Assembly (NCBI RefSeq): GCF_009914755.1
Contig: NC_060948.1
Reading direction: 5' to 3' (one strand)
Length of the DNA: 64,000 nucleotides
Origin: the human T2T-CHM13v2.0 reference genome, Homo sapiens
Below the pieces are notes generated by a model that was given only the letters and a program-made list of their open reading frames with translations, ran no database searches and was not told the DNA's origin. Within the stretch, counting starts at the first letter, position 1, and every line of letters begins with the position of its first letter. This document shows positions 51,233 through 61,870 of this stretch, piece after piece. The translations under genes and the position numbers were made by a program.

Positions 51233-54200
51233 GATTCAAGTACATTCTAAAGAATAGATGGCAGTGAGGAAATAATCATTATAAATACATAAAACAATCT
51301 GATATACAATTGGTGATCTGCAAGGAAATGTGGGGAAAAGGCAGTAGCATTTACTTCTGAATGGTTGTACAATTTTTAGAGCTTTATAAACTCAGTTTCT
51401 GAATTTTCTGCAATGATTATTACTGTTATTATCAATAAAAATGAGAAAACAAAAATACATGTGTATGCACTCATGCATGAATGCACCCTACATCTTCTAG
51501 AGTTTCTTGGTACTTAATTACAGTAAAACTATAATCTACCACAAAATGACAGCAGCATGCTTTATTGAGCTGCAGTCATGCATGTGGCCTGTTTATTCTT
51601 TTTTTTTATCAACCTATACTTCTTGTTTGGCTTTCTGTACTATAGGTATTTGATATTATAAATATTAATATTATAGATATTTGCAGGTTACATATTTCCA
51701 GTTACCTAGCCACAGATATCAGTGGTGGTATGTGCACTAACTACTACACTCATTTGGGACATAAATTTACATAACAGAAAGGCTCTTGTTTTTGTAATTT
51801 AAATGCACAGGGTTATTTTATTCTATGGGAGCAAGCAGAATTGAATTTAAACTGGCATTTTTCTCTATAGACCTGGGAGTATATTTTTTTTTTGAGATGG
51901 AGTTTGCTCGAATTTTACCTAGGAATGCACTATTTTATTATTTTATAGTGAATAATATCTGTGATAAGCATGCATTACATTACTACTTTCTGAGTCATGA
52001 ATACTACCAAGTAAATATCTCAAATTTATAAATTTTAATGCAATTTTTATTTCTGAATTGATCTTGTGTTTTTTTGATAGAATATACCTAAAAGGCTTAA
52101 AGTGCATATAACTGAGCAGTTTTCTTTTATGTAATGATGCAAAGTATATGAATAGTATGTAATCTGATTCAGCAAAGAGACAAGAGTTTATAGCCAAAAG
52201 ATTTGTGCTTTGAAGTTTGGAAATAGCTCTTATTATGAATTTTTGATCTTGGGTGGGCTATTAACTATGAGTCCTGGTGTCCTCATCCATAAAATGGTAT
52301 TAACAGCACCTGCCTTTTTTGCTTTTCAGGTTTAGAGACTTGAAAAATAAATAATAATACATGGAAGTTGTCTAACACCTTCTGTACCCAGCTTGACCAC
52401 ATACTCAGGTTTTTGGTAATTAGCACAATTAAAGTGAACCAAGGGGGAACAAGTTGCTGATTTAATTTGGGGTTACATTGTCTTCACCCTGTGTCATAGG
52501 CTAATTTAGTCCATGCATTCCTTAAGTATGCATGTCTATTTAAGAGATTAGCTGAGAGTGGCTGATATTCAATGTCAGTTTATCTCAGCTGTGGGAAAAC
52601 AATCCCTGTGTGTACCCTATCTGTGCTTGTGAGTCCACAGTGGGATTTTGTGTACAGAACAGCATGTTTATATTTACAAGATTGAAAATGTAGGTGAAGT
52701 TCATAAGCATCGGAAATAATTCTTTCTTCGTGAAAGCTGTCCTGCTCTTCTGGCATTCTTCTTTGTAACATTGAGTTTCACATATACTTTCCTTGTTACA
52801 TTGCAAACTCCATGGGGTCAAAGTGTGTGTTAGTTTTGCATACTACTGAGTCTGTTGTGTCCATTACAGTGCTTGACACACAGCAGATGCTCAGTAATTA
52901 TAATCGAAATTATCCACATACACACATATAAATATATATATATAAAATATATAAAAACAATTGACTGACAGACTCATTAATTCCCACTACCCACCTCCTA
53001 GTTCCTAGCATAGTGTCAGGTACTTATTAGGTGAACAATAGATAGTGACCATGTCTTCTTTATATTATTTAGCCTGAATTTCCAGCAATAAATCCCTGGA
53101 CAAAGTCTGTTGTTTATAGTACTATACCATAGATACAGGATATGTTTCCAGCAATAAATCCATGAACACAGTATGTATCTTATACAATCAAACCATGTGC
53201 CCAAGGTGACTCTTCAGCAGTAAATCAGTGTACACTACCTGAATCTCATAACCTTATCCTGTGGACACAAGCTGAGTCTCCAACAGTAAATCCATGCACA
53301 GAGACTGTAACTTCCACAGTCACACCATGGGCCAAGGAAGTATCTCCAGCAGTAATTCCATGGACACAGCCTACACCTTCTGTAATCGTACCTTGGACCC
53401 AGGTTGAATGTCCATCAGTAAATACCTGGAGAACATCCATAGCCGATACCATCACACTATGGAAAGGGGCAGAATTAACCTCAGGATATCCATGGATACT
53501 GCCTTGGGTTGCTACTGTCACACTATGGGCACAGTCTGAATCTCCAGCAGTAAATCTTTGGACACAGTCCATGTATGACAGAGACACACCATGGCCTCAA
53601 GCTGAATCTCCAGCAGTAGTTTACTGGACAGAACCTGTAGCTGATACACACAAACTGTGGACTCAGTTTGAATTTTTAACAGTAAAGTCTTGGATCCAAT
53701 CCATATCTGATACACTCATACCATAGACCTAGGCTAAGTCTTCAGCACTAAAGCATTTTACACAGGCAATAGCTTATACAATCAAATTGTGGAACCAAGT
53801 CAAATCACCTGCCATAAATATCTGGAAAGAATATGAAACCAATATGTTCACACAGTGGACTGAGGTTGAATCTCCAAAAGTAAATGAGGGGACACATCCC
53901 ACATCTACTACAGTTATGCTACTGAACCAAGTTAAATCTGTAGGAGTAAATCCCTCCGCAAAGCTTGAGACAGAAATTCTCATACTGTGGACCCAGGCTC
54001 ACACTAAAATCAACAATCCCTGCACATACACTCTACTTGATAGAGTGACATCATTGGCTAAGGATGTTTGTGTAGCAGTACATCCACGGAGGTAGTCTAA
54101 AACTGAAATAGTCACATCATAGGCCCAGGATCTGTTGCCAGCAATAAATCCCTTAACAGTGGCTGTACCTGGTAGAGTCACACTGCAGTACATGGCTGTA

Positions 54201-54584
54201 TCTCTAGTAATAATTGCCAGGAGAGAGGATCTAACTGATACAGTCATAATATAGACACAGATAAAATTACCAGTGATCAGTTTCTGGTTACAACCTCTGC
54301 CTGGCACAGTCAAACTGTGGACCCAAACAAAATATCCATCAGTATCACTTGGAACCAGGCTGAATTTCCAGCAGGAAATCCCATGATACAATCTAAGCCT
54401 CCACTTGTAAAGATATGAACAGAGTCTGAATCTCCAGCCCCAAGTCCTCTGTTACAGGCGGAAACGGATATAGCCATACCATGGACCCAGACTGAATCTT
54501 TGGCAGTAAATCCCTGGACAAAGCCTGCTGCTGATACACTCACACTGTGTACACAGCCTGTAACTCCATCATTAATCTTCTTTT

Positions 54585-54883
54585 TTTTTTTTTTTTTTTT
54601 GCGAGACGGAGTCTTGCTCTGTCGCCCAGGCTGGAGTGCAGTGGCATGATCTCGGCTCACTGCAAGCTCTGCCTCCCAGGTTCACGCCATTCTCCTGCCT
54701 CAGCCTGCCGAGTAGCTGGGACTACAGGCGCCCGCCACCACACCTGGCTAATTTTTTCTATTTTTAGTAGAGACGGGGTTTCACCGAGTTAGCTAGGATG
54801 GTCTCGATCTCCTGACCTCGTGATCCGCCCGCCTTGGCCTCCCAAAGTGCTGGGATTACAGGCATGAGCCACTGTGCCCGGCC
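54585..54883 (-). mobile_element. AluY inserted in the repeat exon
   Basis: AluY motif GCAAGCTC...TTCACGCCATTCTCC; TSD CATTAATCTTCTTTT at 54570-54584 and 54884-54898. Confidence 0.93.
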
Positions 54884-55328
54884 CATTAATCTTCTTTTCA
54901 CAAACTTTTCATGCTACACTGAAAGCATGGTTTCAAACTGAATGTCTACCAGTAAATACCTGGACAGAGGCTGCTGCTTCCAAACTTATACCCTGGATCT
55001 AGGCTGAATTTCCAGCAATAAATCCTTGGACAGAGACTTTTGCTCATACAGTAACAATTTTGGCACAGGCTGTATCTTCAACAGTGAAGACCTGGCCACA
55101 ATCTTCATTTAATACAACCAGATTATGGTCCCAATCTGAATCTGCAGCATTAATTACATAGATACAGCCTGCATCTGACACATGCATAGGACTGATCCAA
55201 ATTGAATCTTCACTAGTAAATACCTGGATACTGCCTATATCTAATACATTAGCACAGTGGACCCAGCCTGTATCTCTAGCAGTCAATCTGTGAATAGAAG
55301 CAATAGCTTCCATAGTCACACCTTGGAC

Positions 55329-60600: not shown

Positions 60601-60810
60601 TGCTAAAAAGATAATGAAATAGAAAAAATGTGTGATGTAAAATATTAATGGTGATAAAATGAACTGAATTTCTGTATAAAATTTATAGACACAAGTTTAA
60701 AGTGATGACGAGATGTAAGTGATAAGACAAATCATAGTTTTATCTTAACACTTAGGGTTTAAATTTAACATATTTTCTTAAGGATAGTTATAGTCCATTT
60801 GTCTTTCTAG

Positions 60811-60942
60811 GACGAACCGATGACAATCCAGAAATATTAGAAGCATGTGATGGAAGCTTCCAGCTATGCCCACCTGTACCCTGACATAGACAGTTCCATT
60901 GTTTGCTTCATTACTCAGGTCAAAGACTCTGATGCAAATGTG
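60811..60942 (+). pseudogene. protease exon (C168-C182 region)
   Basis: TTTCTAG|GA phase-1 acceptor; PEIL [frameshift] VMEASSYAHLYPDIDSSIVCF; phase-0 donor GTG|GT. Confidence 0.75.
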
Positions 60943-61480
60943 GTACACCGTCAATTTTTTTTTCTTACTAGTGATAGGAACCATAACTTTGTCCCTATAC
61001 AAAAGAGTATACTGCATATGCCTAAATGATAAATATAAGTGAATCATTGATCAGTAGGAAACCATTTTAAAACTCTTTAATTACAGAACAAAGTCTCTGA
61101 AAAAATTTTATTGTTAATCTCTGAGTTTTCTTACATGGGTTTTCAATCTCTAGCCACACTATATAGCTAGTATGCTGCTCTACACATAAATTAGACATTC
61201 TATATTATTCTCTTATTCTAATAATAGTATCTTCACACATCAGAGTTTAAAACAAGTCTCATTTTTTCTATTTCTCCAGTTAAAATAACTTTTTAAGATT
61301 TAATTTTCAGTGATTTTTTTGTAGTAATACTTTTGAAAGTGTTTGATCAGGATGGTTTATTATGCATTTATCTGATGTCTCCCTTCCTTCTGAATACATC
61401 TTTTATTATCCACTTATTAAATCTATGATTAATAATTTGGAATAGGGATTTAAATCCAAATGCTATGTTTGAATTTACAG

Positions 61481-61870
61481 GAGTCAGTGAGCCTAGGAAG
61501 TGCCATTATGTGCAGACCAGTATCTGGCAATGGCAGTTGGAGACAAATAGCCTTCACCAGTCTCAAAGCCCTAGCTACTACAGTGAGTCCACATTTTGCC
61601 TGGACTTATCTATTCAGCAAAAGAAGGCCACCCAATAAATCAGGCCCTTGCGCCTTGGGTAGAAACTCCGAAGTCCTCTAGTCTCCTTAAACAGCCAACC
61701 ACACTGCCATTTTCCTCAATAATAATTACTGCAGCCCAAGGACTTTGGTAGCCTAGTGACTATAACCAGTGGTGCCACAGTCTGGTCACAGTATGACAAA
61801 ACACCAGAGTATCAACGAGGAAAATCTTGACTTAGCCTTCCAAAATCTATCTCAATATACCTTCAATAAA
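61481..61870 (+). pseudogene. terminal protease exon and 3' UTR; catalytic Ser absent
   Basis: TTTACAG| phase-0 acceptor; VSLGSAIMC at the GDSGGPLVC position; WRQIA; VSPHFAW; tail to a stop near 61750; AATAAA at 61865-61870. Confidence 0.8.

What the first reader, a model, noticed from the sequence alone, without database searches (positions are those of the whole stretch)
53073..61870. Hidden fossil gene: giant Trp-periodic repeat fused to tandem trypsin-like (pseudo)protease domains
Seen: one + strand gene model links (a) ~2.7 kb of repeat-rich coding sequence, after removing the Alu and MER11, (b) a protease-like C-terminal segment and S/T linker ending at donor 57380, and (c) four exons with LTAAHC, NDLAL and the Ser-motif position. 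The introns between the four exons have phases 2, 1, 0. Established: this phase pattern and placement is that of trypsin/kallikrein genes, and multi-domain S1 proteins (ovochymase, polyserases) exist. I know no named S1 protein with this 11-residue Trp repeat. Inference: a decayed copy of a poorly characterised, large, probably secreted or surface-anchored polyprotease-like gene; intact orthologs may survive in other mammals.
Basis: partly seen in the sequence, partly recalled or inferred. Interest (0 to 1): 0.88.

Follow-up and report, generated by a model that had tools for sequence, protein, structure and literature searches.

The report
Decayed extra copy of Y-linked PRSSLY

Summary
Window 53073-61751 (+) carries about 2.7 kb of coding remnant built from an 11-residue Trp-periodic repeat. 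It is followed by the tail of a first trypsin-like domain with a Ser/Thr linker, and then by four exons of a second trypsin-like domain (intron phases 2, 1, 0).

Intact proteins with this architecture exist in sheep, bats, mole, rodents and a marsupial. One of them is named PRSSLY. Hughes et al. 2022 (PMC9178871) described PRSSLY and reported human, chimpanzee and rhesus pseudogene loci.

This copy is dead:
- It is 5'-truncated.
- It lacks 4.96 kb, including most of domain 1.
- It carries an Alu and a 1.1-kb dispersed repeat.
- It has at least 16 stops and several frameshifts.

It is not the published human model, which starts at chrY 10.24 Mb. It is one of at least 14 Y-only paralogous loci, most followed by RBMY-like DNA. 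A fragment also sits in a sampled TSPY repeat unit, at TSPY-array spacing. Exons and introns of the copies diverged equally fast, so there is no sign of selection after duplication.

The kind is known. The unannotated copy, the multicopy spread, the repeat and the dead catalytic sites are modest additions.

The parts
53073..54584 (+). Remnant of the giant PRSSLY exon, part 1: 11-residue Trp-periodic repeat with 7 in-frame stops. Homology to all paralogues starts here, so the copy is 5'-truncated.
   Evidence: tblastn with sheep P0001; Trp spacing and stops; 91.5% to the b2 paralogue and no homology upstream of 53071-53073
54585..54883 (-). Alu-type insertion private to this copy. A T20 run lies at its left end; the strand is inferred from that run.
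   Evidence: Absent at this site in the b2 paralogue; T run 54581-54600; masked 54570-54889 in the hub's repeat list
54884..55328 (+). Giant-exon remnant, part 2 (Trp repeat, 3 stops, different frame).
55329..56439 (.). 1,111-bp dispersed-repeat insertion private to this copy, solo-LTR-like in size.
   Evidence: Absent in b2. 40 of 40 scored matches: the window's own plus 39 elsewhere at 88-91% on many chromosomes, out of 2,215 first-look candidates
56440..57171 (+). Giant-exon remnant, part 3. It ends at sheep residue 514. Position 57171 is the junction of a 4,961-bp deletion relative to b2 that removed the rest of the exon and most of protease domain 1.
57173..57379 (+). Tail of the last exon of trypsin-like domain 1 plus the Ser/Thr-rich linker. 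Stops: TAG 57182-57184 (shared with b2), TAA 57296-57298, TGA 57349-57351. One frameshift near 57320-57325. GT donor at 57380-57381.
58803..58937 (+). Domain 2, exon A. His codon of TAAHC at 58921-58923; TGA stop at 58827-58829; private 2-nt deletion near 58869. The following intron is phase 2.
   Evidence: Pfam Trypsin E 3e-7 for 58855-58938
59302..59548 (+). Domain 2, exon B. Asp codon of NDLAL at 59426-59428; private 1-nt deletion near 59438. The following intron is phase 1.
   Evidence: 87% and 69% to sheep 1607-1689
60811..60942 (+). Domain 2, exon C. Frameshift near 60841, shared with the b2 paralogue. The following intron is phase 0.
61481..61751 (+). Domain 2, exon D. Leu codon 61493-61495 at the catalytic-Ser position; two private 1-nt deletions near 61604 and 61612; hydrophobic C-terminal tail; TAG stop at 61749-61751.
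61865..61870 (+). AATAAA, a likely polyadenylation signal 114 nt after the stop codon (inference from position).
   Evidence: read

Best explanation
The stretch is a non-functional paralogous copy of PRSSLY (protease, serine-like, Y-linked). It arose as part of a Y-specific segmental duplication that also carries RBMY-like DNA downstream. It is sister to the four copies in the long-arm repeats at 22.8-26.9 Mb.

This lineage already carried a nonsense codon and an exon-C frameshift before the window copy split off. Afterwards the window copy lost its 5' end and 4.96 kb (most of domain 1), took up an Alu and a 1.1-kb repeat, and gained further stops and frameshifts. It cannot encode the protein. 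At most it gives a low-level non-coding transcript (inferred; not testable here).

The parent protein, as seen in intact orthologues, has four parts:
- a long array of 11-residue units with consensus W-T-Q-x-E-S-P/D-A/T-V-N-P;
- trypsin-like domain 1, which lacks His, Asp and Ser;
- a Ser/Thr linker;
- trypsin-like domain 2, which keeps His and Asp but has Pro at the Ser position in eutherians, followed by a short hydrophobic tail.

The parent protein therefore most likely acts as a non-catalytic binding or scaffold protein of male germ cells (inference).
For: Homologues:
- The repeat ORF hits sheep P0001 at E 3e-46, the only protein at E <= 0.001 among 464 candidates.
- The domain-2 region of P0001 finds 7 proteins among 1290 candidates, including 'TPA_inf: PRSSLY [Peromyscus eremicus]'.
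- 7 of 7 have two or more Pfam Trypsin stretches.
- tblastn maps sheep residues 462-514 and 1491-1822 colinearly onto 57005-61745.

Literature: passages of PMC9178871 describe the giant exon, the trypsin-like domain and human pseudogene loci.

Published model: the first 30 nt of the published human model occur once in the genome, at chrY 10244163-10244192(-). That copy aligns to window 57171-63016 at 81-82%.

Copy number and relationships:
- All 47 and all 44 genome matches lie on chrY.
- The tree places the window copy sister to the four 91% copies, support 1.000 in both segments tested.
- The TAG at 57182 and the frameshift at 60841 are shared with b2.

No constraint after duplication:
- Exon/intron divergence ratio is 0.77-1.26 over 21 pairs.
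- Indels number 13 in 809 exon columns and 64 in 2653 intron columns.
- dN/dS is 0.56-1.15 over 21 pairs.

Against: - Only 1 of 7 protease-exon pieces scores against Pfam Trypsin on its own.
- I saw only the first 400 nt of the published human model. I cannot exclude that later parts of that model, or other loci meant by the paper, include this copy.
- The trees are unrooted (drawn with a midpoint root), so which locus is ancestral is open.
- Most pairwise dN/dS values lie below 1 (0.56-0.9). This leaves room for a short period of constraint after the older duplications.
- Transcription of this copy was not testable.
- The binding or scaffold role of the parent protein is inference. Both structure models were of too low confidence to use.
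- Mouse knock-outs show at most a mild sex-ratio effect (PMC9178871, abstract) or none (PMC7617377, passages).
Confidence: 0.92

Rival explanations
1. PRSSLY was amplified while still functional, as a multicopy testis gene like other ampliconic Y genes, and the copies died independently later.
For: Disabling mutations in domain 2 differ between lineages. The 22.34-Mb copy has only one stop, and the b1-b4 copies are broken only in exon C, over about 264 codons. The TAG at 57182 is absent from the 7.35, 22.3 and 9.95 Mb copies. Most dN/dS values are below 1.
Against: Exons diverged as fast as introns: ratio 0.77-1.26 over 21 pairs. Exon indel density (13/809) is not clearly below intron density (64/2653). 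A gene killed by a mutation outside the parts compared (promoter, giant exon) would show the same pattern of private breaks.
Confidence: 0.18
2. This locus is the original (orthologous) PRSSLY site of the primate Y and the other copies derive from it.
For: It lies on the short arm outside the large long-arm repeats, with RBMY-like DNA 4.4 kb downstream. I recall, but did not check, that PRSSLY adjoins Rbmy in mouse.
Against: Homology to every paralogue begins abruptly at 53071-53073, while the paralogues carry 0.9-2 kb more of the exon upstream. The copy also lacks domain 1, which all others keep. A truncated copy cannot be the source of fuller ones unless the truncation came later. The tree is unrooted.
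Confidence: 0.1
3. The locus still has a function, either as a short protein from a surviving ORF or as a regulatory non-coding RNA.
For: The paper reports low-level transcription of human PRSSLY pseudogene sequence (PMC9178871 passages and Additional file 3). A 186-codon stretch without stops, bounded by stops, survives.
Against: No start of the gene and no upstream exon are present. Stops and frameshifts occur in every part. No Rfam family matches 50000-64000. No sign of constraint was found. RefSeq annotates no gene here (hub note).
Confidence: 0.04

Closest known systems
PRSSLY (protease, serine-like, Y-linked), Hughes et al. 2022, BMC Biol 20:133 (PMC9178871)
   Same: Y-linked. Very long single exon without known domains, followed by trypsin-like exons. 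67-87% protein identity to the sheep orthologue in domain 2. A protein named PRSSLY shares the domain-2 region.
   Different: Here the gene is dead, 5'-truncated and internally deleted. The main text of the paper has no occurrence of 'catalytic', 'triad', 'tryptophan' or 'tandem', and it speaks of one identifiable domain. The orthologues show two to three Trypsin stretches and an 11-residue Trp repeat.
Published human PRSSLY pseudogene model (Additional file 9 of PMC9178871)
   Same: Same gene family and same Trp-periodic coding style. The genomic copy at the model's start aligns to the window at 81-88%.
   Different: The model's first 30 nt match only chrY 10244163-10244192(-). Two motifs from it are absent from the window at up to 3 mismatches. 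That copy keeps domain 1. I saw only the first 400 nt of the model.
PRSS55, named by the paper as the closest paralogue of PRSSLY
   Same: Testis-specific trypsin-like family member (PMC9178871 abstract). Chromosome-8 matches at 9.21 and 9.24 Mb to domain 1, residues 16-55 of the query, may be this gene (gene identity recalled, not checked).
   Different: I recall, but did not check, that it has a single domain, no giant repeat exon and an autosomal location.
Multi-domain S1 proteins (polyserases, ovochymases)
   Different: No Trp-periodic repeat array and not Y-linked. No sequence comparison was made here.

Membership tests
PRSSLY gene family | Sequence homology to proteins named or recognised as PRSSLY, across both the long exon and the trypsin-like part | tested here: met
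   E 3e-46 for the repeat ORF. Colinear tblastn hits at 64-87% over sheep residues 1491-1822. P0005 is named PRSSLY.
PRSSLY gene family | Y linkage in eutherians | tested here: met
   The window is chrY (hub note). All 47 and all 44 own-genome matches are on contig C24.
PRSSLY gene family | Very long single coding exon upstream of the protease exons | tested here: met
   2.69 kb of colinear repeat-coding remnant without introns, interrupted only by two private insertions. It is truncated at both ends relative to the paralogues.
PRSSLY gene family | Intact open reading frame (functional member) | tested here: not met
   12 stops in the repeat frames. 4 stops and 5 frameshifts from 57173 to 61751. 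4.96-kb deletion. It is a pseudogene member.
PRSSLY gene family | Testis-specific expression | not testable with these tools
   No expression data are on hand. The paper reports low-level transcription of human pseudogene sequence.
Peptidase S1 / Pfam Trypsin (PF00089) | Match to the family profile | tested here: met
   Exon A piece: 30.9 bits against a cut-off of 20.6. The other 6 pieces gave no match. Orthologues score E 1e-40 to 1e-53 with 2-3 stretches.
Peptidase S1 / Pfam Trypsin (PF00089) | Catalytic triad His-Asp-Ser | tested here: not met
   Domain 2 of the window has His and Asp but Leu at the Ser position. 6 of 6 eutherian orthologues have Pro there and the marsupial has Ser. Domain 1 lacks all three in 7 of 7 (Arg, Ile or Ser / Gly / Leu), anchored on the plasma kallikrein alignments. 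The placing of the Ser position in domain 2 rests on a MAFFT alignment to domain 1, not on a solved structure.

The most novel reading that the evidence does not exclude
In the human lineage PRSSLY is not a single relic. It is a Y-only family of at least 14 loci, and its last two exons were seen in one sampled TSPY repeat unit, with 26 matches at TSPY-array spacing. The family spread in a cassette with RBMY-like DNA.

The boldest reading not excluded is that PRSSLY was a multicopy, selected testis gene in early anthropoids and died copy by copy. A separate 98-codon relic on chrX might be the trace of the X homologue that the paper reports as missing.
Probability: 0.18. Interest if true: 0.5.

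Novelty: new member of a known kind. Interest (0 to 1): 0.3.

Why it matters
PRSSLY is the one gene reported to have been lost from the X and kept on the Y in placental mammals, and primates then lost it as well.

- Multicopy spread. The human Y holds many decayed copies, tied to RBMY-like and TSPY repeat units, and this one is unannotated in RefSeq. Knowing this helps pseudogene annotation of the complete Y. It also explains part of the content of those repeat units.
- Expression estimates. Low-level expression figures for 'the' human pseudogene may pool reads from paralogues that are 82-91% alike.
- Parent protein. The Trp repeat and the loss of catalytic residues in both domains point to a non-enzymatic role.

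None of this changes the picture of the locus itself: it is a dead gene copy.

Tried and rejected
- Pfam on separate exon pieces: 6 of 7 protease pieces gave nothing. The 4 giant-exon pieces gave only sub-threshold unrelated matches or none. One search failed on stop codons and was corrected.
- Structure of the 186-aa repeat ORF alone: mean pLDDT 29.8. Structure of Peromyscus PRSSLY with a 7-row alignment: mean pLDDT 27.7. Both were too poor to use, so no fold search was run.
- Tandem Repeats Finder does not see the repeat at DNA level: 10 rows, all short simple repeats.
- Idea that the annotated PRY family derives from these exons. One search with the intact exon D of the b2 copy, limited to proteins of 48-156 aa, gave 5 unnamed proteins and no named one. 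One paper search gave nothing on origin (listing only). The idea is not supported and was not pursued; it rests on recalled map positions.
- A PDB search with domain 2 alone was not run (see the operators' field). The catalytic-Ser placement in domain 2 therefore rests on the alignment.
- Rfam: 0 matches in 50000-64000.
- Synteny of the chrX relic could not be checked, because the gene names of Fig. 6 are not in the text.
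Full report
**Observation.** It had three parts:
- a repeat-rich coding stretch with Trp every 11 residues;
- a protease-like C-terminal piece with a Ser/Thr linker ending at a donor at 57380;
- four exons with the TAAHC, NDLAL and Ser-motif positions, and intron phases 2, 1, 0.

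All of this is there.

In the frames that match an intact orthologue, 24 of 39 successive Trp-Trp spacings are exactly 11 and 35 of 39 are multiples of 11. In the main segment, 12 spacings of 11 compare with at most 5 in 2000 shuffles, and 0 of 2000 reached 12. The unit consensus is W-T-Q-x-E-S-P/D-A/T-V-N-P over 24 units. Tandem Repeats Finder does not see it at DNA level.

Splice sites and phases read from the sequence and the protein alignment give these exons:
- 58803-58937 (phase 2)
- 59302-59548 (phase 1)
- 60811-60942 (phase 0)
- 61481-61751

An AATAAA lies at 61865-61870.

On its own, only the exon A piece passes Pfam Trypsin (E 3e-7, 30.9 bits, cut-off 20.6). The other 6 protease pieces gave nothing.

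**What it is.** The 186-codon stop-free stretch of the repeat (53166-53726) finds a single protein at E <= 0.001 among 464 longer candidates. This is a 1823-residue sheep protein, P0001, at E 3e-46. P0001 has the same Trp repeat in its first 1000 residues, where 45 of 66 spacings equal 11. It also has two Trypsin stretches.

Its last 264 residues find 7 proteins among 1290 candidates: sheep, two bats, a mole, two rodents and a marsupial. One is named 'TPA_inf: PRSSLY [Peromyscus eremicus]'. All 7 have two Trypsin stretches, and one has three.

Hughes et al. 2022 (PMC9178871) describe PRSSLY as follows; I read the abstract, passages, sections 7 and 12, and the supplement legends:
- a Y-linked, testis-specific gene with a giant single exon without known domains, plus a trypsin-like domain in four to nine exons;
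- human, chimpanzee and rhesus Y loci that are transcribed pseudogenes.

**Anatomy of this copy.** tblastn with the sheep protein and alignment to a paralogue, b2 at 23.46-23.48 Mb, give the following map:
- Repeat exon remnant: 53073-54584, 54884-55328 and 56440-57171.
- Private Alu: 54585-54883.
- Private 1,111-bp dispersed repeat: 55329-56439. All 40 scored matches hit; 39 lie elsewhere, at 88-91% on many chromosomes. The name MER11 was not checked.
- Deletion: at 57171 the window lacks 4,961 bp present in b2. Sheep residue 514 is therefore followed directly by residue 1491. This explains why only the tail of domain 1 and the linker are present (57173-57379).
- 5' end: homology to every paralogue starts at 53071-53073, while the paralogues carry 0.9-2 kb more repeat upstream. 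The copy is therefore 5'-truncated.

**Breaks.**
- Stops in the repeat frames: 12.
- Further stops: TAG 57182-57184, TAA 57296-57298, TGA 57349-57351 and TGA 58827-58829.
- Frameshifts: in the linker and in each of exons A-D.

**A family of copies.**
- Published model. The first 30 nt of the published human model occur once in the genome, at chrY 10244163-10244192(-). Two motifs from the model are absent from the window. The published model therefore starts in another copy, which aligns to the window at 81-88%. I saw only its first 400 nt.
- Own-genome searches. These put all matches on chrY: 47 of 47 for the repeat and 44 of 44 for the protease region. Only 40 of 15,972 first-look candidates were scored, so the counts are lower bounds.
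- Locus count. Thirteen loci, including the window, cover at least 83% of the 3.2-kb protease region. Four match at 91% (22.78, 23.48, 25.31 and 26.93 Mb). The rest, at 82-84%, lie at 5.92, 5.97, 6.19, 7.35, 9.95, 10.16, 10.23 and 22.34 Mb. A 14th locus at 7.94 Mb is partial.
- TSPY array. 26 rows between 8.998 and 9.648 Mb, spaced about 20.3 kb, hold the last 1.4 kb. One such unit contains exons C and D.
- RBMY-like DNA. It lies 4-18 kb downstream on the same strand of at least 8 of the 14 loci.
- Domain 1. The other copies keep it.
- Tree. Trees of two segments place the window copy sister to the four 91% copies, with support 1.000 in both.
- Shared breaks. The TAG at 57182 and the exon-C frameshift are shared with b2 but not with older lineages. 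The other breaks are private.

**Was there selection after duplication?**
- Pairwise exon/intron divergence ratios are 0.77-1.26 over 21 pairs.
- Indel events number 13 in 809 exon columns against 64 in 2653 intron columns.
- dN/dS is 0.56-1.15 over 21 pairs.

This gives no clear sign of constraint. The copies most likely spread as passengers of RBMY- and TSPY-containing duplications. The private pattern of breaks, and the near-intact domain 2 of the 22.34-Mb copy (one stop), keep a small chance that the older duplications happened while the gene still worked.

**The parent protein.** Against plasma kallikrein, domain 1 has Arg for His, Gly for Asp and Leu for Ser. In the alignment of 7 proteins, none of the 7 has His, Asp or Ser at these positions. 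Domain 2 keeps His and Asp in 7 of 7. At the Ser position it has Pro in the 6 eutherians and Ser in the marsupial; the window has Leu.

The orthologues end in short hydrophobic tails, and only the marsupial has a signal-like N-terminus. The Trp period is absent from the marsupial, where 0 of 24 spacings equal 11.

I infer a non-catalytic, possibly membrane-attached germ-cell protein. Both structure models were too poor to help.

Mouse data do not settle the function. [quoted passage not shown] No effect on any measure, sex ratio included, is reported in another (PMC7617377, passages).

**Novelty.** The gene and its human pseudogene state are in print. In the main text of PMC9178871, 'catalytic', 'triad', 'tryptophan' and 'tandem' occur 0 times, and PRY, RBMY and TSPY occur 0 times. 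The paper speaks of one identifiable domain and of a single copy in species with high-quality assemblies. A full-text search for PRSSLY found 23 papers, of which I saw the listing of 20. I opened two of them (PMC9178871, PMC7617377), and none of the 20 listed titles concerns human copy number. Figures were not visible, so two domains or several human loci may be drawn there. RefSeq annotates no gene in the window (hub note).

I therefore rate this as an unannotated member of a known kind, with modest additions: the multicopy spread, the repeat unit and the dead catalytic sites.

Noticed in passing
L043 4849-5142 (-) = own genome C23 (chrX) 54,011,848-54,012,141: A 98-codon stretch on chrX matches PRSSLY domain 1 at 30-39% identity over about 90-110 residues, with two stops inside the stretch. 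Genome-wide E is 1.1e-5, and E reaches 1e-9 to 1e-10 against the 10-kb locus. No autosomal protease gene matched this part of the query. It may be a trace of the X homologue that the paper reports as missing. The match seems to run across an exon junction without the intron, so a processed copy is equally possible.
   Followed up: partly
L046 3272-4203 = own genome C24 9,039,271-9,040,202, and 26 rows between 8.998 and 9.648 Mb: One sampled TSPY unit holds PRSSLY domain-2 exons C and D. Exon D is open over 85 codons; exon C has a stop and a frameshift. The unit also holds about 3 kb of the downstream flank, and it groups with the 5.92/10.23-Mb copies in the tree (support 0.993). The 26 rows match at about 20.3-kb spacing.
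   Followed up: partly
L044 2300-6300 (just beyond the window end, chrY 8,560,300-8,564,300): RBMY-like DNA (the hub's RBMY2MP) follows the PRSSLY copy on the same strand here. The same holds at no fewer than 7 other PRSSLY-like loci, 4-18 kb downstream, so the two appear to have been duplicated as one cassette.
   Followed up: partly
L015 (own genome C24 22,333,603-22,339,789): The 22.34-Mb paralogue has only one stop and no frameshift across the roughly 264 codons of domain 2, so its domain 2 is the least decayed among the 12 loci compared. Its domain 1 is broken.
   Followed up: partly
P0006 residues 1-60 (Neotoma, partial); walrus entry of Additional file 9 of PMC9178871: Some orthologues carry a third, degenerate trypsin-like stretch in front of the giant repeat exon (3 Pfam stretches in P0006). 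The full architecture may therefore be domain, repeats, domain, linker, domain.
   Followed up: no
own genome C24 8,651,049-8,651,132 (+), about 93 kb beyond the window: A further short fragment matches the linker end of PRSSLY domain 1 (75% over 28 residues, E 0.006).
   Followed up: no
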